DNA from: a bacterium
GTDB lineage: Bacteria > Patescibacteriota > UBA1384 > CAILIB01
Assembly (NCBI GenBank): GCA_037131105.1
Contig: JBAXRQ010000001.1
Span: 830,217-894,216 of the forward strand
Direction: 5' to 3'
DNA length: 64,000 bases
Position 1 is the first letter of the stretch. Each line of letters opens with the position of its first letter. The position numbers were made by a program, and so were the translations under genes. Under the pieces are notes generated by a model. It ran no database searches. It saw only the letters and a list, made by a program, of their open reading frames with translations, and was not told where the DNA came from. Positions 8,900 through 63,923 of the stretch are shown one piece after another.

Positions 8900-9460
8900 C
8901 TAGAACTCGACTTTGACCGGCTGCTTAGCGGCAGCCTCGTCAAGTACAAAGAGATCCTTCTTGGAAAAGCCGAGCATGCTGGCGAAGAGGCTGGTAGGCA
9001 GAGTCTGCAGCTTGGTATTGAAGTCACGCACGGTGGCGTTGTAGAAGCGACGGGCAGCCTCGATCTTGTTCTCTGTGTCGGTAAGCTCTGAAGACAGCTG
9101 CTGGAAGTTCGCCGTGGACTTCAGGTCGGGATAGTTCTCGGCGACGGCAAATACAGACCGCAGGGCGCCGGTCAGCATGTTCTCTGCCTTCTGCTGCTCA
9201 GCCAGTCCTTGTCCGCCGGCGGCGATGGCATTGGCACGGGCCTGGGTAACCTCTTCCAGAACACTCTTCTCCTGCTTCACATAGCCCTTTACCGACTCAA
9301 CCAGGTTAGGAATCAGGTCGTAGCGACGCTTCATCTGGACGTCGATGTCCGAAAGGGCCTCATCAGCCTGGTTGCGGGAAGCGATCAGACCATTGTAGCT
9401 GACAGCGACGAAGAGAAGTAGAAGAACAAGAACAGCGATGATGATATAGGTTGCGGTCAT
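8900..9460 (-). CDS. lemA: LemA family protein
   Basis: N-terminal TM plus the conserved LemA core (RRYDLIPNLVESVKGY). Confidence 0.85.
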   Translation of the reverse strand: MTATYIIIAVLVLLLLFVAVSYNGLIASRNQADEALSDIDVQMKRRYDLIPNLVESVKGYVKQEKSVLEEVTQARANAIAAGGQGLAEQQKAENMLTGALRSVFAVAENYPDLKSTANFQQLSSELTDTENKIEAARRFYNATVRDFNTKLQTLPTSLFASMLGFSKKDLFVLDEAAAKQPVKVEF

Positions 9461-11503: not shown

Positions 11504-12802
11504 CTATTTGGTTAATATCTCTAGGGCCTTGCTGACCTGGGCATCAGTAGTACTGGTAGGGGTTCCGTCAGGCAGGGCTACGGTAACGTCGGGACTCAGC
11601 CCCTTGCCGTCGATGGTGACCCCGAGCGGTGTAAACCACTTGGCCACGGTTATTTTGACGCTACCCTTATTACTAAGCGGTACAACTTCCTGGGCACTGC
11701 CCTTGCCGAAGGTCTTGGTGCCAACCAGAGTAGCACGATGATAGTCACGCATAGCGCCGGCAAATATTTCCGAGGCAGAGGCACTGCCACCGTTTACCAG
11801 CACTACCATGGGTATCGTATCCAGTATAGGATCATCGCTGGCCGTATGCACGTCTTGGCTGCCATCTTTGAACTTCTCCACCACGGCCGTGCGCTCCTGT
11901 AAGCGAGAATCAGTTTCCGTCGGATGCCGAGGAATGACCCGTCCGATGGCCTCAACTGCCGAGTCCAGGTAGCCTCCAGGGTTGTCACGCAAGTCGATCA
12001 CTAGGCCCTTTTCATTCTTGGAAGCGGCGTCATGCAGGGCGGCGTCGAGTAGGCCGTTGGTATCACTACCGAACTGATTGACCTTGATATAGGCGAACTG
12101 CTTCTTGTCCCCCAGTGTACTGGAAGTGACGCTCTTAACCGTAATGGTATCGCGCACCAAAGAGACAAGTAGAGGCTTTTCAGCCCCGGCTCTGGCAATG
12201 GTCAACTTCACCGTACTGCCCTTCTCACCTCTGATAGCGTTAATAGCATCGTCGAAGCTCATGGCAGCCACTTTCTTATCCCCTATCTGCACAATGATAT
12301 CACCACCCTTCAGCCCCGCCTTCTGAGCAGGTGTACCATCAAGGGCCGACTCAATGGTAAGCAGGCCGTCCTTTACGTCAAGCTGGGCGCCAATACCTCC
12401 AAAATTACCCTGCAGATCAGACTGAAAGAGGGTATTTTGGCTCGGCGGAAAATAGACCGTGTACGGATCACCGAGGCCAGCCACCATACCTGAGATAGCC
12501 CCCTCCACCCGTTTATTGTCATTGGCGGTACCGTAATAGGTAGAGTCGATGGCATTCCAAGCCTGCCAAAACAGGCCAAGATCTGCCTGCTTGCTCTTGT
12601 CAGGATTCTTGCCATTCAGAATGTAGGCAGGGATGCCGGAGCTAGTGTAGCCCCGAGCCTTCAGGACCACTAGGCCGATGTAGATACCGGCGATCAGGCT
12701 GATCAGCACTAGGCCAAAAAGCAACCCCCCGCCCAGTAGGCGGCGGTGTAGACGATGGCGAGGAGCAGTAGGTATCGGGATCGGGGACGTGTCCTTGAGC
12801 AT
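11504..12802 (-). CDS. ctpA: Carboxyl-terminal processing protease (S41) with PDZ domain
   Basis: N-terminal TM, PDZ region (GGIGAQL) and S41 catalytic region. Confidence 0.85.
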   Translation of the reverse strand: MLKDTSPIPIPTAPRHRLHRRLLGGGLLFGLVLISLIAGIYIGLVVLKARGYTSSGIPAYILNGKNPDKSKQADLGLFWQAWNAIDSTYYGTANDNKRVEGAISGMVAGLGDPYTVYFPPSQNTLFQSDLQGNFGGIGAQLDVKDGLLTIESALDGTPAQKAGLKGGDIIVQIGDKKVAAMSFDDAINAIRGEKGSTVKLTIARAGAEKPLLVSLVRDTITVKSVTSSTLGDKKQFAYIKVNQFGSDTNGLLDAALHDAASKNEKGLVIDLRDNPGGYLDSAVEAIGRVIPRHPTETDSRLQERTAVVEKFKDGSQDVHTASDDPILDTIPMVVLVNGGSASASEIFAGAMRDYHRATLVGTKTFGKGSAQEVVPLSNKGSVKITVAKWFTPLGVTIDGKGLSPDVTVALPDGTPTSTTDAQVSKALEILTK

Positions 12803-12888
12803 ATGGGTTCATTATACGATGAAACTGGCTTCTGGCCAATGATTAATAAACCTAAGAAAAAGCTTTGGCCAGAATGAGGGGTTCTGTT

Positions 12889-13000
12889 TGTGAGCGCATT
12901 TCAAGGAAAAGACGAGCATCGAACCGAGGCGTACTCTTCTGTACGTCGAGGGAGAAGCGGAGGCTTTGACGCTGAAAGTCGCCGCAAGCAGAGGTCCTGG
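12889..13000 (+). repeat. Copy A of a ~115-nt conserved structured element (second copy at 54066..54182)
   Basis: Shares gcatttcaagg...accgaggcgtac-N6-gtacgt[ct]gaggga...gaaag.cgcc with copy B. The internal hairpin GGCGUAC/GUACGUC keeps pairing through a G·U wobble only on the plus strand. Confidence 0.5.
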
Positions 13001-14194
13001 TTATTTACCGGTGAGGTGACCGCAGAGGACGACCAGCCCATTATCCAGCTGCATAGCCCAGGCATTGCCATAACCGCCGTACCACGCATTCAGGATCACT
13101 CGTCCGTCCGCCGGCGCGTGCACCGCCTCACCGTATGGCCCCGCCAGGTCAATACCGGTATGCATGGACCCGCCATAGGCACCCGACTTCGCATAGCCGG
13201 TCCAGCCAAAGCCCTGGGTAATGATAAAGCTGCTGATCGGCCAGCTGAGTGTACCTTTGTTGACGTAGGGCTGCGGATTGACCGGCTGGTCATTCAGTCG
13301 GACCTCGAAGTGGACGTGAGGACCAGTTGAATTTCCGGTGCTTCCCTCATGTCCGATGATGTCGCCGCGGTGCACCCGGCCGCCCACTCCTGGACCGTTG
13401 ATAGCGCCTCCGATGCTGGCCTTCTTAATAGCGGCGCTCAAAGCAGCCGAGATCTGGTTCTCAATCTGCTGCTCCTGGATACGAGCAGCCTTAGCCTTAG
13501 CTTCCAACGCCGCTTCGGCCGCCGTGGCATTGTCCCGCAGCTGTGCCTGCTGGTCTTGGATATCAGCAAGGCTCACCTGCTGTTCCTGCTGGGCGTTCTG
13601 CTGGTCATTTAAGTCTTGGCTCTTCTTGACCAGCTGGTTGCGAACCCCCTCCACCTGCTTTTTGGAAGCAAGGTACTTGTCATTGACGCTGTCCAAAGAT
13701 TTCTTAAGCACCTGGAGCTCCTGCTGGTCCTGCTGCTTTTTGCTAATGGATTGGCTCGAGAAGAGGTTGAGATCGTCGGGATGGCCGACCCAATAGATAT
13801 AGAGGGCTCTTACCAGAGCGTTCTGCTGGTCTTTTACCGTCCGCATCTGTGCCTCCAAAGCGTCGACTTCTTGGTTCTTCTCATTAATCTGCGTCTGAGT
13901 GTCGCTCAGCTGCCCCCTAGTGGAGTCAATGCTCTCCTTTAGGACGCCGATCTGACCAGCCACCTGGGCAATCTTGTCAGTGGCCCTGTCCGCCAGGCTT
14001 TTCTTAGCATCTGCCTGCTGTTGGGCCTGCTGGGCCTGCTTCAAGAGGTCGAGCTGCTTCTGCTTCAGGGCGTCTACGGTACTAGCAGCGTGGGCAGTGG
14101 GCACAGAAGAGATATTCCGCACGGGAACCCCATAGGCCAGAGAGACCAGGGTCAGGACGGTGATGAGGGAGAGGGCACGGACTGGTACCTTCAT
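13001..14194 (-). CDS. Coiled-coil M23 (LytM) metallopeptidase, EnvC/RipC-like
   Basis: Signal peptide, a long Q/K-rich coiled coil, and a C-terminal HxxxD...HVHFEV LytM domain. Lies next to ftsEX. Confidence 0.85.
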   Translation of the reverse strand: MKVPVRALSLITVLTLVSLAYGVPVRNISSVPTAHAASTVDALKQKQLDLLKQAQQAQQQADAKKSLADRATDKIAQVAGQIGVLKESIDSTRGQLSDTQTQINEKNQEVDALEAQMRTVKDQQNALVRALYIYWVGHPDDLNLFSSQSISKKQQDQQELQVLKKSLDSVNDKYLASKKQVEGVRNQLVKKSQDLNDQQNAQQEQQVSLADIQDQQAQLRDNATAAEAALEAKAKAARIQEQQIENQISAALSAAIKKASIGGAINGPGVGGRVHRGDIIGHEGSTGNSTGPHVHFEVRLNDQPVNPQPYVNKGTLSWPISSFIITQGFGWTGYAKSGAYGGSMHTGIDLAGPYGEAVHAPADGRVILNAWYGGYGNAWAMQLDNGLVVLCGHLTGK

Positions 14195-15172: not shown

Positions 15173-15333
15173 CGTTGGGTAGCGTTATTCTCAGAGACTT
15201 TGCATAGTCCTAAGGAATACTTTTGAGACGTATCCCGGAGGGATATGACTATATAGTTTTCCTTGAGTCGATCAGTATTCATTGGGACTATGTAAGGTCG
15301 ATTTTCATTGAGTCGAACAGCTATTTTTGGCAG

Positions 15334-18318: not shown

Positions 18319-18402
18319 GCCGGGGTGGTGGAATGGTAGACACGCTAGCCTTAGGAGCTAGTGCCGCAAGGCGTGAAGGTTCGAGTCCTTTCCCCGGTAC
18401 CA
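18319..18402 (+). tRNA. tRNA-Leu (anticodon TAG)
   Basis: Cloverleaf by eye. Acceptor GCCGGGG/CCCCGGU, anticodon loop CUUAGGA, long variable arm, T-loop GGTTCGAGTCC, encoded CCA. Confidence 0.85.
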
Positions 18403-32412: not shown

Positions 32413-32805
32413 CTACGGCTGTAGCCGAGTAACCCCCTTAAGCTTATCGAAGTCCTTGTCCCAGGAGTAAACAGGAATTTTTTCGTGAAGTGATAGTGCC
32501 GCTAGATACGCATCTACATAATCTATCGAACGACTACCAAAAAGCTCAAGAGCTGCATCGAGTAGCCTTAGATTCCCTTTCAGGGAAGGCGTCTCCAGAA
32601 GCAGTCGCAGTTGCCGCGCGAGGATCTTGCGCTCAACCTTGTAGTGGGACGAGAGCGTCCACACCACTTCGGCTAATACCGTATCAGGCAGCACAAGCTG
32701 AACGTCAGTCCTACTGAAAAGCTTCCATGCCGCCTCACTCTGAACCCTATTGTTCACGACCAGAAACCTGATCACCACATTAGAATCGAGCAGGGCAGCC
32801 GTCAT
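32413..32805 (-). CDS. vapC: PIN-domain toxin VapC
   Basis: 130 aa with N-terminal LLDSNVVI and conserved acidic residues. Overlaps the upstream antitoxin ORF. Confidence 0.75.
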   Translation of the reverse strand: MTAALLDSNVVIRFLVVNNRVQSEAAWKLFSRTDVQLVLPDTVLAEVVWTLSSHYKVERKILARQLRLLLETPSLKGNLRLLDAALELFGSRSIDYVDAYLAALSLHEKIPVYSWDKDFDKLKGVTRLQP

Positions 32806-34912: not shown

Positions 34913-35890
34913 ATGAAGGCCATGAAGATCTCCACCGCCACCAGCGACTATCTCGAGTATCTGCAGGTAGAACGCAACCGGTCCCCCAAGACCATCGTCG
35001 CCTACCGGCATTACCTGGAGCGCCTGATGGGCTGGCTGGGCAAGGACATTGAGATCGAGCAGCTTTCAGCTCAACAGGTTAGGAAATACCGGCTTTACCT
35101 TGCCCAGTTCGAGGACGAGTACGGCGAGCCCCTGACCCTGCGCACCCAGACCTACCACGTCATCGCCCTGCGCTCCTTGCTGCGCTACTGCATCAAGCGC
35201 GACCTCGCATGCCTCTCCCCTGACAAGATCGAACTGCCCAAACCCGAGGACCACGCCATCCAATACCTTTCGGCCGAAGACCTGGAGCGGTTACTTACCA
35301 TACCTGATACTTCCACTATGGGCGGCCTACGCGACCGGGCCCTGATGGAACTCCTCTTCTCTACTGGTTTGCGCGTGGCTGAGCTGACCGGACTGGACCG
35401 CCGTATGCTTTCTACTGAGACTGGAGAGATGCGAGTAATAGGCAAGGGACGCAAGGAGCGCATAGTCTTTATCTCTGATCGGGCCAAGGAGTGGATGCGG
35501 GCTTATCTCGACCGAAGGTCAGACACCTCTGAAGCGGCTTTCGTCGGCTACCGGGGCAAGGGCACCAGCGTCGACCCCTCTCCACAGGTTGAGGCTCAGG
35601 CCACCCGACTGACACCGCGCTCGGTGGATCGCCTGATTCAGAAGCATGCCTTGGAGGCTGGCATTGTAAAAAACGTTACTCCCCACTCCCTGCGCCACTC
35701 CTTCGCCACAGATCTGCTCTTAAACGGGGCAGACATCAGAAGCGTCCAGACTCTGCTCGGCCATGCCTCCATCACCACTACCCAGGTATATACCCACATA
35801 ACAAATCAGCGGCTGCGCGAGGTGCACAACCGCTTTCATGGCAAGGGGCTCGATAAGGACTCCCCAGAACAAGAAAAGCCCAAACCTTAG
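34913..35890 (+). CDS. xerC: Tyrosine recombinase XerC/XerD-like
   Basis: R...HxxR...Y catalytic pattern (HSLRHSFAT...LGHASITTTQVYTH) and an N-terminal SAM-like core-binding domain. Confidence 0.85.
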   Translation: MKAMKISTATSDYLEYLQVERNRSPKTIVAYRHYLERLMGWLGKDIEIEQLSAQQVRKYRLYLAQFEDEYGEPLTLRTQTYHVIALRSLLRYCIKRDLACLSPDKIELPKPEDHAIQYLSAEDLERLLTIPDTSTMGGLRDRALMELLFSTGLRVAELTGLDRRMLSTETGEMRVIGKGRKERIVFISDRAKEWMRAYLDRRSDTSEAAFVGYRGKGTSVDPSPQVEAQATRLTPRSVDRLIQKHALEAGIVKNVTPHSLRHSFATDLLLNGADIRSVQTLLGHASITTTQVYTHITNQRLREVHNRFHGKGLDKDSPEQEKPKP

Positions 35891-45729: not shown

Positions 45730-46491
45730 ATGCAACAAGCAGACATTCTCATCAAAAACCTGGGTCTGACCGACAAGGAAGCGGCGGTCTACATGGCCAT
45801 TCTTGAGCTCGGCACCAGCACCATCCAGCCTATCGCCACCCAGTCGGGCATCAAGCGCACCTCCATCTACTACTTCATTGACCACCTGGTGGAGCTGGGC
45901 CTGGTCGAGCAGGCCAAGATCAGAAACCGCAAGCATTATTCAGCCCTCCCCCCTGAGAATATGGTTAGCCTGCAGAAGCAGCGTCTGAGCGAGCTCGAGG
46001 AAATGCTCCCGGAGTTCAAGAGCTTCTATAATGTCTCGGCCAGCAAGCCCCGCATCAGCTATTACGAAGGCACCACCCAGCTGCAGAATATTCTTCTGGA
46101 GGAGCTGAAGTGCAAGGAGGTCTGGTACATATGGCCCACCAAGCTTGCCGTAGACATGGTAGGAGGCCCGGAATTCATGCAGAAGCTGTTCCGCCAGCTG
46201 GTGGACAAAAAGATCAAGGTAAAGGTCATTAGGTTCCATGACCAGGAGGTACATTTCCCAGGTTCGATAGGCGGCGGCGTCGAGAAGATACGCGAGATAC
46301 GCTATGCCAAGCCTGGGATGACCTTCCCCCTGGCTATCGGCATATATGACAGCGGCAAGGTGGGCTTCCTCAGCTCGAAGAAGGAAGGGTTCGGCATTAT
46401 GATCGAAAGCCGTGAGCTCTATGACGCTATGTGCCTGCTGTTCAATATCTTCTGGGAGCAGACGGACGTAGTAGAGGGCGCCGAGGGCTAA
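45730..46491 (+). CDS. TrmB-family transcriptional regulator (paralog 1)
   Basis: N-terminal wHTH plus a TrmB-type C-terminal domain. AT-rich promoter region upstream. Confidence 0.65.
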   Translation: MQQADILIKNLGLTDKEAAVYMAILELGTSTIQPIATQSGIKRTSIYYFIDHLVELGLVEQAKIRNRKHYSALPPENMVSLQKQRLSELEEMLPEFKSFYNVSASKPRISYYEGTTQLQNILLEELKCKEVWYIWPTKLAVDMVGGPEFMQKLFRQLVDKKIKVKVIRFHDQEVHFPGSIGGGVEKIREIRYAKPGMTFPLAIGIYDSGKVGFLSSKKEGFGIMIESRELYDAMCLLFNIFWEQTDVVEGAEG

Positions 46492-47127: not shown

Positions 47128-47889
47128 ATGGATAAAGAATCCCTCCTCTCCGAGATCGGCCTCAGTGACAAAGAGACCAAGACCTACCTGGCCATTCTTG
47201 AGCTGGGCAGCAGCACCATCAAGCCCATCGCCCTGCGCTCAGGCATCAAGCGCACCTCCATCTATAACTTCATTGACCGCCTGGTTGAGCTGGGCCTCAT
47301 CACCCAGACCGTAGTACGAGGCCGCACCCATTACCAAGCCCTTCCTCCTTCGCACCTGGCCGACCTGCAGAGAGAGCGCCTACACCGGGTAGAATCAATA
47401 CTGCCGGAGCTTACCAGCCTGTTTAACCTGAACTCCTCCAAGCCCCGCATGCACTACTATGAGGGCCCCGAGCAGATGAAGAATATCGTCCGAGAAGAGC
47501 TCTCCTGCACCAAGGAAGCCCTCTACATCTGGCCCAGCGCCGAAAGCACCGAGATGATCGGCGGGAAGCGGTTCATGACCGACATCGACAAGCAGCGCAT
47601 AGAGCGCGGAGTACGCATTCGTACCATTCGCATGCACGACCAGACCGAGCATCTCTTTGAGACGTCAGCCCACGGCACCGCCTTACTTCGGGAAGTACGG
47701 TTCGCACCTGAGAATGAGAACTATAAGATGGGAATGGGAATCTACGACACTGGCAATGTCAGCTTCTTCAGCTCAAAGGAGGAGGGCTTCGGCATCCTTA
47801 TCGAGAGTAAGGAGCTCAGCGCCATGCTGCGAAGCCTGTTCGAACTGCTTTGGCAGGTGTCCACCCCCGCCAAGCCAGGACAGGGGTAG
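47128..47889 (+). CDS. TrmB-family transcriptional regulator (paralog 2)
   Basis: 253 aa, the same length and architecture as 45730..46491. About 55-60% identical to it by eye. Confidence 0.65.
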   Translation: MDKESLLSEIGLSDKETKTYLAILELGSSTIKPIALRSGIKRTSIYNFIDRLVELGLITQTVVRGRTHYQALPPSHLADLQRERLHRVESILPELTSLFNLNSSKPRMHYYEGPEQMKNIVREELSCTKEALYIWPSAESTEMIGGKRFMTDIDKQRIERGVRIRTIRMHDQTEHLFETSAHGTALLREVRFAPENENYKMGMGIYDTGNVSFFSSKEEGFGILIESKELSAMLRSLFELLWQVSTPAKPGQG

Positions 47890-48980: not shown

Positions 48981-51665
48981 CTATTCATTACTGGGGAAGG
49001 CCTGGTTAGCCAATGTCTCAAAGCGTCCAAACTGTAACCGGGCCAGCAACTTGGCATCCCCAGTCGGGCCGTTACGGTGCTTCCTCACCATCACTTCCAT
49101 GAGGTTGTTCTGCTCGTCCTTGTTATAGTAGTCGTCGCGATACAGGAACATCACCACGTCAGCGTCCTGCTCAATCGAATTGTGGACGACGATGTCATTG
49201 GCAACAAAGTTATGAGTTCCGGGAACTGTTGCGTCAAACACTTCTTCTACTGCCAGCGGAGTAATACTAGTAATTTCATCCCAATACAGATCGGAGTCAG
49301 CCAAGACCCCAAGATAACGACTACCGACTATCTGTGCAATTCGTCCTAGCCGCTCCCTGCTCACTCCGCTCTTAAACAAGGCTGATCCGGCGTAGGACAT
49401 TCCCATACTTGCCTGTACGGCTCTCCAGCTCAGCCCTGACGCCACTTTGGCCGGGATGATCAGCTGTTCCCAGATTGAAAGGTCGAGGGTATCGGTATTA
49501 GGATTGCCTTTTAAGCCAGCAAGCAACTCCTTGCACTGGCTAACGTTCTCTCCCCTGCGGCCATGACAGCCAACAGCGGCGAGAAATATTTCCTGGTTTG
49601 CCTTGCCTTGCACTTCTACATGATAACTTGGACGAAACGTCTTAGCTCCCTTGACCTGGGGAACCTGACGAAGGGTAGCCTGCATTCCCACCCGTAATAA
49701 TAGATGCTGCACCTGTTCCGCTAGAATCGGGCTAGTAGTAGCATAGTATATCGAGACCTTGTCCCTGGCTACGGACAGACATCCGTCAGTTGCCCACAAG
49801 TGATGCAGGAAGAGGGCTACCTGGGAATTTGAACAGCTGAAGAGACTGGCCGGCAGCTTTTTCTCATAGGAACGCGCCAATCCCAACCCCTCAGATTCCA
49901 ACCACTTTAGAAACGGATGCTTCTTACCTCTGGCATTACGATACGGACTAGGAAGATACAGATGATACCAGCTCTTCTGAGCAACCTGACGAGGCTTAAT
50001 CCCGTAAAGTATTGCAGTGGCATAGGCTACCGCTTCGATATTAGCTGGGTCATTACTCGTGTAATGCACCGGCTGGTGAGATACGTAGCACCCATCCCCC
50101 ACCATATGGGCCAGGAATGTCAGCTGTTCATCGCTATAAGAGGTGTTATCGGCAAGATTGCTAGGGAACTGACGTGGCAGGGCTAGTTTCTCGCCAATCT
50201 TAAGATTATCGAGGGATTGCCATTCAGTATACGTCTTGAACTTATGGTTAGCAGAGGCTTTGATCGTCCTACCGGAGCGGAACTTCAGCTCATATGTCTG
50301 CTTATAACCACTGGAGAATACTTTGGAAGCCGTCTTACGAACAATCTTATACTCCTCATCCATGCTCCACACCGGCACGTTAGTCTGACCTACCAGATCT
50401 TTGATCATTACGCGCTCACCAGTATCAGCTCTCTGGATAAGGGTATCGCCGGTCAAACAGCCACTTTCTCTTAGGTCCGACAGCAGCGGCCGCTTGTCCG
50501 GGCGCGACTCCACCGCACGGGAGAGCTGCGACAGGGCGATCACCGGACAGTTGATCTCTCGGGCCAGGGCCTTTAACGAGCGGGAGATTTCCGAGACTTC
50601 CTGTACACGGTTGTCGCTATTGCCTTTCGCGGTTCCCTCCATGAGCTGCAGGTAGTCCAATACTATGAGGTCAAGACCGTACTCAGCCTGCAGACGTCGA
50701 GCCTTGGCGCGAACCTCCATGATATTGGCCGAAGGGGTATCGTCGATGAACAGGTTGGCTTCGGCAAGTATTCCGTAGGCCTCGTTCAGGTTACGGAAGT
50801 CCTCGTCATTCAGCTTGCCGTTACGCAGCTTCCAGCTGTCGATCTGGCCAATAGAGGAAATGAGACGATCCACCAGCTGCTCCTTGGACATTTCCAGGGA
50901 GAAGATGCCCACCGACTTCTTCTGTTGCACGGCCACGTTCTGGGCGATCTGCAGGGCGAAGGCCGTTTTTCCCATCGAAGGACGGGCGGCCAGGATGATC
51001 AGGTCAGACTGCTGCAGGCCACCCAGGATATTGTCTATGTGCTTGTAGCCGGTCGAAAGGCCGCGCATAGTCCCATCCTGCTTGGACAAGGCATCCAGCC
51101 GCTCGAAGCTGTCGGCCAGGATGCTGCGGACCGGGATGAAGTTCTGCTTGAGGAAGCGCTGGGTGACGGCAAACAAGGCCTGCTCGGCCTGGTCCAGAAT
51201 GACGCTTGACGGCTCGTCCTCACGGAAGCCCAGCTCGCTGATCGAGCCGGCCGCGGAGATAAGGCGGCGCAGCATGGCCTTCTCCCGGACGATCTGGGCG
51301 TAATGCTGGACATTGGTGGCAGAGGCCACTGAGCTCACCAGGCTGGAAAGCTTGGCCGGGCCCCCTATCTGGTCCAGCTTCTTCACCCGGGCCAGCTCGT
51401 CGGCCACCGTCACCAGGTCGATGGGCACCCGCTTCTCTGAGAGAACCACCATGGCCTCGTAGATCGCCGCGTGGTCAGGGCGGTAGAAGTCGACGGCAGA
51501 CAGTATGTCGATGACCTTCAACATCGCCTCCACATCGAGAAGCAAGGCCCCGATAGTGGAGACCTCGGCGTCGATGTTCTGCGGGGGCATCCGGCCGGCC
51601 ACCTGGTGAGGGGTCAGCGACGGGGCCTCCTGCTGGTAGTTCTGACGAGAACCAGTGCGGGCCAT
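48981..51665 (-). CDS. dnaB: Replicative DNA helicase DnaB interrupted by an intein
   Basis: 894 aa. Exteins carry the DnaB motifs (ARPSMGKT; DLRESG|SIEQDAD). The insert lies at the canonical DnaB intein site. Confidence 0.9.
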   Translation of the reverse strand: MARTGSRQNYQQEAPSLTPHQVAGRMPPQNIDAEVSTIGALLLDVEAMLKVIDILSAVDFYRPDHAAIYEAMVVLSEKRVPIDLVTVADELARVKKLDQIGGPAKLSSLVSSVASATNVQHYAQIVREKAMLRRLISAAGSISELGFREDEPSSVILDQAEQALFAVTQRFLKQNFIPVRSILADSFERLDALSKQDGTMRGLSTGYKHIDNILGGLQQSDLIILAARPSMGKTAFALQIAQNVAVQQKKSVGIFSLEMSKEQLVDRLISSIGQIDSWKLRNGKLNDEDFRNLNEAYGILAEANLFIDDTPSANIMEVRAKARRLQAEYGLDLIVLDYLQLMEGTAKGNSDNRVQEVSEISRSLKALAREINCPVIALSQLSRAVESRPDKRPLLSDLRESGCLTGDTLIQRADTGERVMIKDLVGQTNVPVWSMDEEYKIVRKTASKVFSSGYKQTYELKFRSGRTIKASANHKFKTYTEWQSLDNLKIGEKLALPRQFPSNLADNTSYSDEQLTFLAHMVGDGCYVSHQPVHYTSNDPANIEAVAYATAILYGIKPRQVAQKSWYHLYLPSPYRNARGKKHPFLKWLESEGLGLARSYEKKLPASLFSCSNSQVALFLHHLWATDGCLSVARDKVSIYYATTSPILAEQVQHLLLRVGMQATLRQVPQVKGAKTFRPSYHVEVQGKANQEIFLAAVGCHGRRGENVSQCKELLAGLKGNPNTDTLDLSIWEQLIIPAKVASGLSWRAVQASMGMSYAGSALFKSGVSRERLGRIAQIVGSRYLGVLADSDLYWDEITSITPLAVEEVFDATVPGTHNFVANDIVVHNSIEQDADVVMFLYRDDYYNKDEQNNLMEVMVRKHRNGPTGDAKLLARLQFGRFETLANQAFPSNE
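49179..50459 (-). mobile_element. DnaB intein (427 aa) with LAGLIDADG homing-endonuclease domain
   Basis: Begins with Cys (CLTGDTLI) and ends ...VVHN before the +1 Ser. Two LAGLIDADG-like blocks (LAHMVGDGCY, LHHLWATDGC). Coordinates come from the ORF track and are ±2 nt. Confidence 0.8.
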
Positions 51666-52727: not shown

Positions 52728-54041
52728 TTAGGGGGTCAGCCGGTTCACACCGCGGTGCAGGTAGGTCACTTCCCTGATATTCTCAGTGTTGAACATCTTC
52801 ATCATCATGCGGACCGGTCCGATTCCGGCGCCACCGTGAGGTGGGCAGCCGTACTTGAAGAAGTCGAGATAGGTGCCAATGGACGCCTCTGTCAGCCCCT
52901 TGTCCAGAGCCTGCTTCTTAAGAACCTCGTAGCGATGCTCACGCTGGGCACCGGTAGTGATCTCTACCCCGTTCCACATCAAGTCAAAGCCTCTAGTGAT
53001 GCCGGGCCGGTCCTCGTACCGCATGTGGTAGAAAGCGCGACTCTCGATAGGATACTCCGTAACGAATACGAACTCGTGGCCATGTTTCTCCATGATGACC
53101 TCGGAAAGCTTCTTCTCTTCCTCAGGGTTGAGGTCGCCGACTTTGTCGCTCTTGATGTCAAACGGCTTGAGCAGCTCCTTGGCCTCGGCCAGGGTTACCC
53201 GGGGAAACGGCAGCGTAGGCACCACCAGCTCGCGACCGAACAGCTCCTTGATCTTCTCCCCGTGCCGCTCCTTGATCGTAGTGAGCACAGAGGCGATCAT
53301 TCCTTCAAGGTTGGCAGCGATGTCCTCATGAGAGTCAATGAACGACATCTCGAAGTCATAGCCGGTGAACTCGGTGGCATGCCGGGTGGTGAATGAGGGC
53401 TCAGCCCGGAACACCGGCCCGACCTCAAATACCTTCTCAAAGCCGGAGGCCATAGCCATCTGCTTGTAGAACTGGGGAGACTGGGCCAGATAGGCCTTGC
53501 CGCCGAAGTAGTCGACGGTGAAGAGCTCAGCTCCGGACTCGCTCGGAGCGCTCATGAACTTGGGCGAGTGGATTTCCAAGAAGCCCTTTTCCAGGAAGTA
53601 CTTCATGAACGCCTCCTCAAAGGTGGTCCAGACCTGGAAGATTAGTAGGTTTTTGGGCTTCCTCAGGTCCAGCCAGCGGTAGTCCAGGCGCAGCGACTGG
53701 TCGGTCTCCCCTTCACCCTTCTCAACTACGGGAATAGGCAGCTCAGGGGCGGCGGCAGAGAGCACCTCGACGCTTTCAACCTGGATCTCAGCCCCGCCGG
53801 GAGCCTGGGGAGCGGCCACTGCCACACCCTCGACGACGATCACCGATTCCAAGGAGATATCCTCAGCAGCGGCAAAGACGGCCTCATGCTCCTTGCTGAC
53901 CACGCACTGGATGGTGCCAGTGACGTCGCGCAGGATAAGGAACTGGATCTTGCTCTGGCGGCGGGCGGTCTGCAAAAAGCCCATCAGGCGGACTTTCTCT
54001 CCAGGCTTGGAGCCGGCCTGGGCGGTATAGGTTCGTTCCAT
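52728..54041 (-). CDS. aspS: Aspartyl-tRNA synthetase, archaeal/eukaryal type (likely non-discriminating)
   Basis: 437-aa class II aaRS with an N-terminal OB and motif 3 (GGAGIGPVRMMM). Co-occurs with gatCAB. Confidence 0.75.
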   Translation of the reverse strand: MERTYTAQAGSKPGEKVRLMGFLQTARRQSKIQFLILRDVTGTIQCVVSKEHEAVFAAAEDISLESVIVVEGVAVAAPQAPGGAEIQVESVEVLSAAAPELPIPVVEKGEGETDQSLRLDYRWLDLRKPKNLLIFQVWTTFEEAFMKYFLEKGFLEIHSPKFMSAPSESGAELFTVDYFGGKAYLAQSPQFYKQMAMASGFEKVFEVGPVFRAEPSFTTRHATEFTGYDFEMSFIDSHEDIAANLEGMIASVLTTIKERHGEKIKELFGRELVVPTLPFPRVTLAEAKELLKPFDIKSDKVGDLNPEEEKKLSEVIMEKHGHEFVFVTEYPIESRAFYHMRYEDRPGITRGFDLMWNGVEITTGAQREHRYEVLKKQALDKGLTEASIGTYLDFFKYGCPPHGGAGIGPVRMMMKMFNTENIREVTYLHRGVNRLTP

Positions 54042-54065
54042 AAAGGTGGGATTAGCGAGACTAGC

Positions 54066-54182
54066 GCGTTTGGATGCATTTCAAGGAAGGATTGAGTATT
54101 TGACCGAGGCGTACTCGCTGGTACGTTGAGGGAAAAACGGAAATCCTGACGAAGAAAGGCGCCAAACGCGTAGGACCGGGGA
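54066..54182 (+). repeat. Copy B of the conserved structured element
   Basis: Aligns with 12889..13000 at roughly 70% identity with conserved blocks. The hairpin GGCGUAC/GUACGUU needs two G·U wobbles on the plus strand. Confidence 0.5.
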
Positions 54183-54554
54183 AATAAAAATGCCCTCGCA
54201 CAATTACTCGAAAGTAATCATGTAAGGGCGACGTTAATCGCGGTGCCACCTTACTTCACTCCTGGCGGAGCCTTGTTTACGCTGTAACGGGCGCTCCCGA
54301 GGGGGTCTAGTATCCGCAGGAGCGGAGTTCTTCCCCTGGCTCAGCGGTGTCAGCCGCCTCAATGCCTATGCAAAGAGTATGGCAGAACCTGGAAAGGAGG
54401 GCAAGTGAGCTGGATTACAAACGTTTACAGCCCTGCCAAAGACCGCTATACTCATCCCAATGACCTCATACTCCTCTTTTAGCTTTTGCTGGCAGTCCCA
54501 CCTCCTTCTTCAGAAGCGAGCCCTGTTTTAGTACCAGTCTAAACCAGAAGACAG

Positions 54555-63739: not shown

Positions 63740-63923
63740 GAGAGAACCTTAGGATCTCCATTCCAAACTGACTCGCCCTATTCCTGTCTGCAGATCATTC
63801 AGGGATCGTCCCCGTATCACACGATACACCTCCTCACCCTTCATGCTCTTCGACAAGGACTAAGGCGAGTCCGTTGGTAAAAGAGATCCCTAAGATCCTC
63901 TCCTACTCCCCAACGCGAAAGAG

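What the first reader, a model, noticed from the sequence alone, without database searches (positions are those of the whole stretch)
12889..13000. Repeated ~115-nt structured element, copy A (partner at 54066..54182)
Two intergenic copies share ordered conserved blocks and a central hairpin. In both copies that hairpin stays paired only if it is read as plus-strand RNA, through G·U wobbles. The conservation is not in codon phase; one copy carries an in-frame stop, so this is not a peptide. It matches none of the riboswitch, T-box or repeat families I know.
Basis: seen in the sequence. Interest (0 to 1): 0.6.

Follow-up and report, generated by a model that had tools for sequence, protein, structure and literature searches.

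The report
Mobile strand-specific hairpin element, function unknown
The two copies are real members of a rare, previously undescribed family of about 110-base hairpin elements that has inserted itself between genes in ultra-small (CPR) bacteria and at least one unrelated bacterium, always backwards relative to the neighbouring gene, and whose way of moving and purpose are unknown.

Summary
Copies A (12884-12991) and B (54064-54171) align without gaps at 83% identity. Each folds on the + strand into one long rod hairpin, not only a central hairpin.

A covariance model built from A and B alone found homologues in a Saccharibacteria genome and in two metagenome contigs. Across five sequences, 18 of 34 pairs show compensatory changes. 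There are 13 G·U pairs and no A·C pairs, so the folded strand is the + strand. Rfam has no match, and the element is not coding.

The "plus-strand RNA gene" reading is only partly supported:
- Every copy lies antisense to its flanking genes, with its 3' end 5-10 nt from a convergent stop codon or terminator.
- No promoter precedes any copy.
- B starts 22 nt from the aspS start codon.
- Close relatives with identical synteny have empty sites in two independent lineages.
- One orthologous copy looks to be decaying.

I read it as a small, non-autonomous, horizontally mobile hairpin element whose active form is a folded single strand, RNA or ssDNA. Its transposition machinery is unknown. A free-standing sRNA remains the main rival.

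The parts
12884..12991 (+). Copy A, complete rod hairpin (P1 12884-12892 / 12983-12991)
   Evidence: CM R1 136 bits. MFE -41.8 to -43.6 kcal/mol on +, against -24 on -. All 34 consensus pairs intact, 3 of them G·U.
12992..13000 (+). Copy A 3' tail (AGGTCCTGG) reaching the stop codon of the convergent M23-peptidase gene (13001-13003)
   Evidence: The tail motif AGGWCC/AAGTCC is shared with B and L029. In L011 the equivalent tail belongs to the inserted segment.
12900..12908 (+). Invariant block TTCAAGGAA. It includes the 5' side of a tandem G·A internal loop that pairs with TGACG at 12967-12971.
   Evidence: Invariant in all five aligned members.
12924..12953 (+). Apical domain: CCGAGGCG, a 7-pair stem (12928-12934 / 12941-12947), a variable loop (12935-12940), then GAGGGA. 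CC/GG pairs flank a tandem G·A. Position 48:65 is G·U or G·G.
54064..54171 (+). Copy B, complete rod hairpin (P1 54064-54072 / 54163-54171)
   Evidence: CM 135 bits. MFE -48.4 kcal/mol, z -5.6 on +, against -31.3 on -. All 34 pairs intact, 4 of them G·U. Ten pairs differ from A on both sides.
54172..54181 (+). Copy B 3' tail (AGGACCGGGG) reaching the U-tract of the minus-strand T-box terminator
54080..54088 (+). Copy B invariant block TTCAAGGAA (partner TGACG at 54147-54151)
54104..54133 (+). Copy B apical domain (CCGAGGCG, stem 54108-54114 / 54121-54127, GAGGGA)
13001..14194 (-). Context of A: M23 (EnvC-like) peptidase gene, last gene of ftsE-ftsX-M23. Its stop codon lies 9 nt from the element.
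   Evidence: The M23 assignment is read from the translation and from the M23 Pfam hit on the homologue in L023. The window gene itself was not scanned against Pfam.
12811..12839 (-). Context of A: promoter-like site TTGGCC-17-TATAAT for the S41 protease gene. The ATG at 12802 lies about 7 nt after the -10 box, so the mRNA is probably leaderless. On host mRNA the element therefore sits in the 3' UTR of the upstream operon.
54182..54371 (-). Context of B: T-box leader (54221-54371) and its intrinsic terminator (stem 54192-54229, U-tract 54182-54191). The element lies between this terminator and the aspS ATG at 54041.
   Evidence: Rfam T-box, E 4.8e-9, below the gathering score.

Best explanation
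Copies A and B belong to a rare family of small (about 110-117 nt), protein-less, horizontally mobile hairpin elements.

Shown. Each copy is one long imperfect hairpin. Its helices vary freely but stay complementary. Its purine-rich internal loops are nearly invariant, even between phyla: UUCAAGGAA opposite UGACG, and CCGAGG opposite GAGGGA, each built round a tandem G·A. The fold is selected on one strand only, the + strand in this window.

Inferred. The element spends a stage of its life as a folded single strand, RNA or ssDNA; sequence alone cannot say which. In that stage the conserved loops are read by a factor supplied in trans, which promotes copying or insertion. Copies land, or survive, only in the few neutral bases between a stop codon or terminator and the next gene's signals. 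They survive only in the orientation that puts the weaker complementary hairpin, free of Shine-Dalgarno-like motifs, into the host mRNA.

Consequences here. A is then a passenger in the 3' UTR of the ftsE-ftsX-M23 operon. B is a passenger in the aspS leader, downstream of its T-box terminator. I see no evidence of a dedicated host function. Once inserted, a copy can decay.
For: Structure:
- 94.7% of pair cells are standard pairs and 18 of 34 pairs show double changes. None of 500 shuffles reaches this. Slid controls give 41-47% paired.

Strand:
- 13 G·U and 0 A·C.
- The sense fold is 4-19 kcal/mol more stable than the reverse complement in all six members.
- Local compositional skew (C>G on +) and the generally stabler minus-strand folds across the window run the other way, so this asymmetry is not a background effect.

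Mobility:
- The element sits at non-orthologous sites in every genome: after M23; in the aspS leader; after a 144-aa gene; after a 392-aa gene; after livF.
- Saccharibacteria relatives at 76-77% and 59% identity of the neighbouring protein keep identical synteny but have an empty site (TAG gta|CTTGACA). L011 and its 94% relative carry a roughly 166-nt insert.
- A relative with 97% LysR identity lacks the L026 copy.
- AspRS relatives have no copy within +-10 kb.

Decay:
- The 94% orthologue has 7 substitutions. At least 5 hit invariant loop bases or break pairs (CCGAGG to CCAAGG, GAG to GGG). The score falls from 91 to 80 bits and the MFE from -44.8 to -36.8 kcal/mol.

Placement:
- In all five independent loci the element is antisense to the gene it abuts. 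Its 3' end lies 5-10 nt from a convergent stop codon (four loci) or terminator (B).

No sign of its own expression:
- No promoter-like site on the folded strand.
- B lies 22 nt from the aspS ATG.

Breadth and rarity:
- Found in two CPR lineages plus a contig with non-CPR gene content at 44% GC.
- Only 3 true hits in pattern scans of 185,579 species genomes and 241 million metagenome records.
Against: - No transposase, reverse transcriptase, HUH enzyme or TnpB lies in the 64-kb window or the fetched flanks. The only recombinase is XerC/D-like.
- There is no target-site duplication and there are no conserved termini.
- The hairpin base (P1) is the most variable part. That is the reverse of MITEs and REPINs, whose ends are conserved.
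- Copy number is very low, whereas typical repeat families have tens to hundreds of copies.
- A, B, L011 and L029 are structurally intact, which could equally mean in-place purifying selection for a host function.
- In the L011/L071 pair all polarisable changes fall on L071. That hints that L011 is under constraint.
- Both empty-site comparisons also involve extra co-inserted or replaced flanking sequence (56 nt with a terminator in L011; the whole spacer in L026). Allelic replacement by recombination, rather than transposition, could therefore explain those two events.
- The sample is only five independent insertions.
Confidence: 0.5

Rival explanations
1. A free-standing structured small RNA gene. 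The + strand is transcribed into a roughly 115-nt rod-shaped RNA. Its purine-rich, GGA/GAGG-containing loops bind a protein, or act as a sponge or antisense regulator. The gene spreads by horizontal transfer.
For: - Strong covariation with invariant loops is the classic signature of a functional RNA.
- G·U pairs occur on the + strand only.
- Tandem G·A loops are common protein-binding RNA motifs.
- Four copies are structurally perfect.
- In L011 a TATATT box lies 10 nt upstream of the hairpin, inside the inserted segment.
- In L026 and L029 an upstream gene is co-oriented and could supply transcription.
Against: - No -35/-10 promoter lies on the + strand at A or B, and the 5' flanks share no motif.
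- B starts 22 nt from the aspS ATG, so its promoter would have to be inside aspS.
- No terminator follows the hairpin, so the RNA would run antisense into the neighbouring gene.
- The element is absent from orthologous sites in close relatives.
- The L071 orthologue carries disruptive changes in invariant bases.
Confidence: 0.22
2. A host-selected, orientation-specific insulator. The strong hairpin on the antisense strand stops RNA polymerase that enters a gene backwards from its 3' end. The weakened complementary hairpin lets sense transcription read through to the next cistron.
For: - The placement is always at a gene's 3' boundary and antisense.
- The sense-mRNA hairpin is much weaker.
- A sequence-unrelated long hairpin in the ftsE/ftsX spacer (15196-15299) shows the same asymmetry and is followed by a U-rich run on the + strand.
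- U-rich sequence follows the hairpin in L011 and L026.
Against: - A terminator needs no invariant internal loops conserved across phyla.
- B and L029 have no U-tract after the hairpin.
- The terminator scan reports nothing at A or B on the + strand.
- Close relatives manage without the element.
Confidence: 0.1
3. A cis-acting element of the host mRNAs, read on the minus strand: a 3'-UTR stabiliser, processing site or 3'-UTR-derived sRNA with CU-rich anti-Shine-Dalgarno loops. This would resemble REP or ERIC elements.
For: - The reverse complement is certainly co-transcribed in every locus. It is a 3' UTR in four loci and the aspS leader in B.
- In L011 and L029 it is followed by an intrinsic terminator, like an sRNA cassette.
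- The complementary loops read UCCCUC, CCUCGG and UUCCUU.
Against: - On that strand the 13 wobble positions become A·C mismatches and there are no G·U pairs.
- Copy A's minus-strand fold is no better than shuffled sequence, z +0.96 and +0.09.
Confidence: 0.06
4. A single-stranded DNA product or recombination site. One version is an attC-like site. Another is the hairpin of a reverse-transcribed cDNA, msDNA-like, made from the host transcript. Either would explain a fold on the strand antisense to transcription.
For: - Integron attC sites also lie directly after a stop codon and fold on the strand antisense to the upstream ORF.
- The size fits attC (57-141 nt) and msDNA (about 50-160 nt), from my own knowledge of those systems.
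- ssDNA and RNA motifs cannot be told apart by sequence (PMC5737381).
Against: - The hairpin base reads 5'-..GTTTGG...CCAAAC..-3'. That is the reverse of the attC R boxes, 5'-RYYYAAC...GTTRRRY-3'.
- There are no cassette arrays, and the neighbours are housekeeping genes.
- The only recombinase scores as XerC/D (250-252 bits), not as an integron integrase (117 bits, cut-off 265).
- No reverse transcriptase or msr-like partner lies nearby.
Confidence: 0.08

Closest known systems
Rickettsia palindromic elements (RPE) and enterobacterial ERIC/IRU elements: 100-150-nt hairpin-forming interspersed repeats with no known transposase
   Same: - Similar size.
- The whole element folds as one imperfect hairpin.
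- Copies diverge but keep pairing.
- They occur in transcribed spacers, with no target-site duplication and no encoded protein.
- They show a patchy presence/absence pattern.
- RPEs, like this element, live in reduced genomes.
(These comparisons rest on my knowledge of the families.)
   Different: - Copy number here is tiny: 2 per 64 kb, and 1 per 20 kb in relatives.
- The internal loops are invariant across phyla while the helices are free.
- Orientation is uniformly antisense to the host gene.
- RPEs also insert in frame inside genes, which was not seen here.
- No sequence similarity was tested or expected.
REPINs / REP elements mobilised by RAYT (IS200/IS605-like Y1) transposases
   Same: They form a hairpin of about 100 nt, lie extragenic near gene 3' ends, have a single-stranded DNA stage with a defined active strand, and make no target-site duplication.
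   Different: - REPINs conserve the hairpin base (the REP 25-mers, with a GTAG or CGTC tag; PMC3733652 was listed but not read).
- Here the base is the variable part and no such tag is present.
- No RAYT or TnpA gene was found in the window.
- Orientation follows transcription rather than replication.
Integron attC recombination sites
   Same: They lie immediately downstream of a stop codon, the functional fold is on the strand antisense to the upstream ORF, they measure 57-141 nt, the structure is conserved more than the helix sequence, and they are mobile.
   Different: - The R-box polarity is reversed.
- The internal loops are strongly sequence-conserved, whereas attC conserves only the R/L boxes and extrahelical bases.
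- There are no arrays and no IntI.
- The flanking genes are essential housekeeping genes, not cassettes.
Orphan structured ncRNA motifs found by comparative genomics (Weinberg et al. 2017, PMC5737381, and successors)
   Same: It is defined only by covariation plus conserved loops, it is rare, and its biochemical role is unknown.
   Different: - It is not in Rfam 15.
- It is antisense to all neighbours.
- There is evidence of recent insertion.

Membership tests
Any Rfam 15 family | Covariance-model match at or near the gathering score | tested here: not met
   At gathering thresholds the window yields only a tRNA. With E <= 10 on both regions, nothing overlaps either element on the + strand except noise (HIV-1_SD 17 bits, lncRNA fragments).
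Riboswitch / cis-regulatory leader (including T-box) | Lies in the 5' UTR of, and in the same orientation as, the gene it controls | tested here: not met
   The folded strand is antisense to both flanking genes at A and B. The real T-box of aspS is a separate minus-strand element at 54221-54371.
Small protein / peptide gene | Open frame conserved among copies, with substitutions in codon phase | tested here: not met
   B has an in-frame TGA, and TGA is a stop here. L011 has a 2-nt indel in the apical loop with both halves conserved. The substitutions are compensatory in helices.
Integron attC site | 5'-RYYYAAC ... GTTRRRY-3' boxes forming the base of the hairpin | tested here: not met
   The base reads 5'-GTTTGG...CCAAAC-3' (B, L029) or GTTTGTG...GCAAGC (A), which is the opposite polarity.
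Integron attC site | Occurs in cassette arrays and/or next to an integron integrase | tested here: not met
   These are single sites between housekeeping genes. The only tyrosine recombinase (34913-35890) scores XerD 252 bits and XerC 250 bits, against 117 bits for integron integrase (cut-off 265).
Integron attC site | Directly follows a stop codon; the folded strand is antisense to the upstream ORF | tested here: met
   Four of five independent loci. This is a resemblance only; see the rows above.
MITE (DNA-transposon derivative) | Conserved terminal inverted repeats and a target-site duplication | tested here: not met
   The termini (P1) are the least conserved part. No flanking direct repeat of 8 nt or more was found, except a 9-nt match in L026 (13 of 14 identical when extended by eye). 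The empty/occupied comparison shows no duplication.
REPIN / REP (RAYT-mobilised) | Conserved REP sequence with a GTAG/CGTC tag at the hairpin foot; a RAYT gene in the genome | tested here: inconclusive
   No conserved foot and no tag in the alignment. No Y1/HUH gene in the 64-kb window. The other roughly 885 kb of the genome could not be examined.
IS200/IS605-type PATE or TnpB omega-RNA scaffold | Separate left-end and right-end subterminal hairpins, a conserved target motif 5' of the left end, and tnpA/tnpB in the genome | tested here: inconclusive
   This is one continuous hairpin, not two end hairpins. The 5' flanks share no motif. No TnpB or TnpA lies in the window. The rest of the genome was not available.
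Retron msd / msDNA | Adjacent msr with a1/a2 repeats, and a reverse transcriptase gene immediately downstream | tested here: not met
   The downstream genes are the S41 protease, aspS and HTH-HSP20. No RT appears in the window or the fetched flanks.
Kink-turn (L7Ae-type) motif | Three-nucleotide bulge followed by tandem G·A pairs between a canonical and a non-canonical helix | tested here: not met
   Both tandem G·A sites were read by hand on the alignment. The apical one is symmetric, with no bulge. The basal one has extra bases on both strands. This was checked by inspection, not by a 3D tool.
Intrinsic terminator | GC-rich hairpin immediately followed by a U-tract on the transcribed strand | tested here: not met
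   The scan reports no + strand terminator at A or B. It does list one terminator-like minus-strand site inside copy B (54166-54145), within the number expected from shuffles. The tails are AGGUCCUGG and AGGACCGGGG.
RPE/ERIC-like palindromic interspersed elements (a descriptive class, not a homology family) | Whole element is one imperfect hairpin of 100-150 nt, interspersed, protein-less, with presence/absence variation between relatives | tested here: met
   High copy number, which is usual for the class, is not met.

The most novel reading that the evidence does not exclude
This is a new kind of protein-less mobile element that crosses phylum boundaries (CPR to a non-CPR bacterium). It moves as a folded single strand that is recognised through invariant purine-rich tandem-G·A loops rather than through its termini. 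It is copied from, or inserted into, the template strand of transcribed DNA, so its orientation is set by transcription rather than by replication. On this reading, several sequence-unrelated long hairpins in the same genome (15196-15299, 63752-63889) would be sister families that use the same route.
Probability: 0.15. Interest if true: 0.8.

Novelty: new variant of a known kind. Interest (0 to 1): 0.55.

Why it matters
CPR/Patescibacteria genomes are among the most compact known and are thought to carry little repetitive or selfish DNA. Almost nothing is known about their non-coding RNAs.

This element is a well-supported structured element: 18 covarying pairs from only five sequences. It is absent from Rfam and shared between CPR lineages and an unrelated bacterium. 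It has inserted into essential operons (ftsEX-envC, and the T-box leader of aspS).

- If it is mobile, it points to an unknown mobilisation route that needs no element-encoded protein and reads internal loops instead of termini.
- If it is instead an RNA gene, it is one of the first CPR-associated orphan RNAs with a clear structure.

Either way, the strict antisense placement at gene ends is a concrete, testable regularity.

Tried and rejected
1. Rfam at gathering and at E <= 10: no family.
2. More copies in the window. blastn-short found only the two. An nhmmer run in the same script printed no output and was not repeated. The CM with default filters found only the two. With filters off it added only a weak 25-bit hairpin at 63764-63872.
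3. IMG/VR viral contigs with three different patterns: 0 hits. blastn against PLSDB plasmids and INPHARED phages: no match.
4. Orthologous aspS loci in the nearest relatives (62-66% AspRS identity): no element within +-10 kb and no T-box in L023. The aspS association is therefore not conserved.
5. Coding potential: rejected.
6. CsrA partner, because UCAAGGAAG resembles a CsrA site: no CsrA-like ORF in the window by motif scan. This is uninformative for the rest of the genome.
7. Replication-strand explanation. GC skew in the other loci is near zero and uninformative. In the window, A, B and H3 lie on one DNA strand and H4 on the other while the skew stays negative. H4's asymmetry also matches the background tendency of the minus strand to fold better, so I do not count it as independent evidence.
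8. Target-site duplications: none.
9. A window-wide sliding fold scan to generalise the antisense-hairpin rule used too lenient a threshold and was inconclusive.
10. My first genome-wide pattern required TTTCAAGGAA.

Full report
**1. The observation**

Window 12882-12998 and 54062-54178 align without any gap at 83% identity. The ordered invariant blocks are GCATTTCAAGGAA, ACCGAGGCGTACTC, GTACGT.GAGGGA, TGACG..GAAAG and CGCC.

On the + strand each copy folds not just into a central hairpin but into a single rod of about 108 nt. A gives -41.8 kcal/mol (z -2.0) and B gives -48.4 kcal/mol (z -5.6). The minus strands are much weaker: A -24.0 (z +0.96) and B -31.3.

RNAalifold on the two copies gives 34 pairs. 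Ten of them differ on both sides between A and B yet stay paired. Four more are kept through G·U.

The frame the two copies share is closed by a TGA in B. TGA is a genuine stop in this genome, ending 5 of 17 long ORFs.

Rfam 15 finds nothing at these positions, either at gathering score or at E <= 10.

**2. Relatives and covariation**

A covariance model built from A and B alone (R1) was used to sift exact-pattern scans.

- Of 17 pattern hits in 185,579 species genomes, one was real: L011, a Candidatus Saccharibacteria MAG, 91 bits, E 1.7e-24.
- Of 47 hits in the metagenome collection, two were real: L029 at 103 bits, and L026 at 34 bits, rising to 88 bits with the six-sequence model R2.

On the five-sequence alignment:
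- 94.7% of the 170 pair cells are standard pairs.
- 18 of 34 pairs carry changes on both sides.
- None of 500 column shuffles reaches any of the five measures.
- Sliding the 3' partners by 1-3 columns drops pairing to 41-47%.

The alignment was fitted to the model, which favours the structure somewhat. The margin is nevertheless very large.

The invariant positions are almost all unpaired or flank tandem G·A mismatches: A.UUCAAGGAA, CCGAGGCG, CG..GAGGGA, UGACG..GAAA. The helices, including the basal one, vary.

**3. Which strand**

In the 170 cells there are 148 Watson-Crick pairs, 13 G·U pairs at nine different pair positions, no A·C, and 9 other mismatches. Four of those nine fall at two recurrent non-canonical positions (18:98 and 48:65).

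The sense fold is 4-19 kcal/mol more stable than its reverse complement in all six members.

This is not a compositional by-product. The + strand of the window is C-rich overall (GC skew about -0.07). Most 120-nt windows fold better on the minus strand. The elements are therefore local exceptions.

The folded strand is the + strand. Whether the folded molecule is RNA or DNA cannot be read from sequence. G·T and tandem G·A are tolerated in both, a point also made by Weinberg et al. (PMC5737381).

**4. Context**

The source is a CPR/Patescibacteria MAG. Its AspRS is identical to an NCBI "MAG: bacterium" protein on a 949-kb contig. The next best hit is 66% identical, and named hits at about 60% are Ryanbacteria, Microgenomates and Parcubacteria.

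Copy A:
- It lies between the stop codon of an M23-type peptidase (13001-13003, last gene of ftsE-ftsX-M23) and the S41 protease gene (start 12802), both on the minus strand.
- The protease has its own promoter-like site, TTGGCC-17-TATAAT, at 12839-12811. It appears leaderless.
- On host mRNA, A therefore lies in a 3' UTR.

Copy B:
- It lies between the intrinsic terminator of a minus-strand T-box leader (Rfam T-box E 4.8e-9, 54221-54371; terminator stem 54192-54229) and the aspS start codon (54041).
- Only 22 nt separate the hairpin from the ATG.

Neither region has a sigma-70-like promoter or a terminator on the + strand. The 5' flanks of the five loci share nothing.

In every independent locus the element is antisense to the gene it touches. 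Its 3' end lies 5-10 nt from that gene's stop codon (A, L011, L029, L026) or from a terminator (B).

**5. Mobility**

The 144-aa gene next to the L011 copy has a graded series of orthologues.
- The 94%-identical relative (L071-L073) has the element.
- Relatives at 76-77% (L074-L078) and 59% (L079/L080) have the same gene order (PBP, 144-aa gene, HTH-HSP20, and so on) but no element.
- Their spacer is TAG-gta-CTTGACA, that is, a stop codon, three bases, then the -35 box of the next gene.
- L011 carries about 166 nt at exactly that point. The insert comprises the element, 25 nt, and an intrinsic terminator hairpin. There is no target-site duplication.
- Parsimony makes this an insertion.

Independently, contigs whose LysR is 97% identical to that of L026 have a 56-nt spacer with an ordinary terminator hairpin and no element.

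Four fetched loci from the nearest AspRS relatives of the window organism (62-66% identity), each with up to 10 kb of flank, contain no copy.

The L071 orthologue differs from L011 at 7 positions. At least five hit family-invariant bases or break pairs. Its fold weakens from -44.8 to -36.8 kcal/mol, which suggests weak or absent constraint after insertion in that lineage.

The window encodes no reverse transcriptase, HUH/Y1 transposase or TnpB. Its one tyrosine recombinase is XerC/D-like.

**6. Interpretation**

The combination points to a small non-autonomous mobile element:
- non-orthologous positions in every genome;
- empty sites in close relatives in two lineages;
- cross-phylum but very sparse distribution;
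- no promoter;
- insertion into the only neutral bases of compact spacers;
- decay of one orthologue.

The one-strand covariation with invariant loops says that what is selected is a folded single strand recognised in a sequence-specific way. I infer a trans-acting partner and a single-stranded intermediate, but I cannot name either.

The uniform antisense orientation may be mechanistic. It may also reflect selection against putting a -45 kcal/mol hairpin full of Shine-Dalgarno-like motifs (AAGGAA, GAGG, GAGGGAG) into an mRNA. That is inference.

Weak points:
- the very low copy number;
- the variable termini, which are the opposite of MITEs and REPINs;
- no identified enzyme;
- the structural perfection of A, B, L011 and L029, which would also fit a host-maintained RNA;
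- extra flanking sequence changed together with the element in both polymorphic sites, so allelic replacement by recombination is possible.

I put the mobile-element reading at about 0.5, a free-standing + strand sRNA at about 0.2, and the other readings lower.

**7. Comparison with known kinds**

- It works most like the RPE/ERIC type of palindromic interspersed element. It shares the "after the stop codon, folds on the antisense strand" geometry with integron attC sites.
- It fails the defining attC features: R-box polarity, arrays and IntI.
- It fails the defining MITE features: conserved TIRs and a target-site duplication.
- It fails the defining retron feature, an adjacent RT.
- It is not a canonical kink-turn, a riboswitch or a terminator.
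- REPIN/RAYT and IS200/IS605-PATE membership could not be settled, because only 64 kb of the genome was available.

**8. Limits**

- Both large collection scans were capped at one exact-pattern search each.
- The first pattern was too strict.
- No expression data exist here.
- Only five independent insertions are known.
- The E-values of the home-built models are rough.

Noticed in passing
window 15196-15299 (+): H3 is another long hairpin, unrelated in sequence. It fills the ftsE/ftsX spacer of the minus-strand operon, 23 nt from the ftsX ATG and 34 nt from the ftsE stop. The + strand folds at -46.1 kcal/mol (z -6.6) with 5 G·U pairs. The minus strand folds at -30.1 with none. This is the same antisense-stable asymmetry as A and B, and a U-rich run follows on the + strand.
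   Followed up: partly
window 63752-63889 (-): H4 is the longest inverted repeat in the window (53-nt arms). It lies 12 nt after the stop of the plus-strand response-regulator gene. It is more stable on the minus strand (-69.4 against -56.3 kcal/mol, with 4 G·U against 0). Model R2 scores it 25 bits (E about 1e-4), and its apical part (GAGG-UGUAUC..GAUACG-GGGA) resembles the family, so it may be a distant relative. Its asymmetry also matches the background skew, so it is weak evidence.
   Followed up: partly
window 54221-54405 (-): This is a T-box leader for aspS-trpS in a CPR bacterium, scoring 46 bits against a gathering score of 93 because Stem I is reduced to a short hairpin. The apical loop CUGACA carries a GAC (Asp) triplet where a specifier would sit. 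The T-box bulge reads UGGC, which would match a G73 discriminator. A promoter-like TTGCCC-17-CATACT lies upstream. It resembles the ultrashort-Stem-I T-boxes known from Actinobacteria. The specifier and the promoter were assigned by eye.
   Followed up: partly
window 12811-12874 (-): The S41 protease gene appears leaderless: TATAAT lies about 7 nt before the ATG at 12802. A 10-bp inverted repeat, TTCTGGCCAA/TTGGCCAGAA (12830-12874), overlaps its -35 box and may be an operator.
   Followed up: no
window 48981-51665 (-): The DnaB helicase gene (894 aa) is interrupted by an intein with a LAGLIDADG homing-endonuclease domain, according to the precomputed Pfam hits listed for the identical gene in L001.
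   Followed up: no
L026 4300-4317 and 4444-4460: A direct repeat, GTCCGAAGAAATTC / GTCCTAAGAAATTC (13 of 14 identical; 9-nt exact core). One copy lies just after the LysR stop codon and the other forms the 3' arm of that element's basal helix. It could be a remnant of a second copy or a trace of how the insertion arose. No equivalent exists at the other loci.
   Followed up: partly
L011 660-712 / L071 10552-10610: The segment inserted in the Saccharibacteria lineage carries the hairpin and also a bidirectional intrinsic terminator (AAAAACCCGGCTCAGGAGCCGGGTTTT) that relatives with the empty site lack. L029 likewise has a strong terminator about 50 nt 5' of its copy.
   Followed up: partly
window 8969-9088: Inside the LemA coding region there is a single unbranched hairpin that is far more stable on the antisense (+) strand (-46.0 kcal/mol) than on the coding strand (-24.0 kcal/mol).
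   Followed up: no
window 18319-18399 (+): A tRNA with a long variable arm (anticodon loop CUUAGGA, probably tRNA-Leu-UAG). It lies on the + strand, opposite to almost all surrounding genes, and is the only Rfam gathering-level hit in the window.
   Followed up: no
window 45730-46491 and 47128-47889 (+); 32413-32805 (-): Two paralogous 253-aa TrmB-family regulators lie in a lower-GC stretch (44-50 kb, GC about 0.51-0.52). A PIN-domain toxin gene lies upstream of uvrD/pcrA.
   Followed up: no
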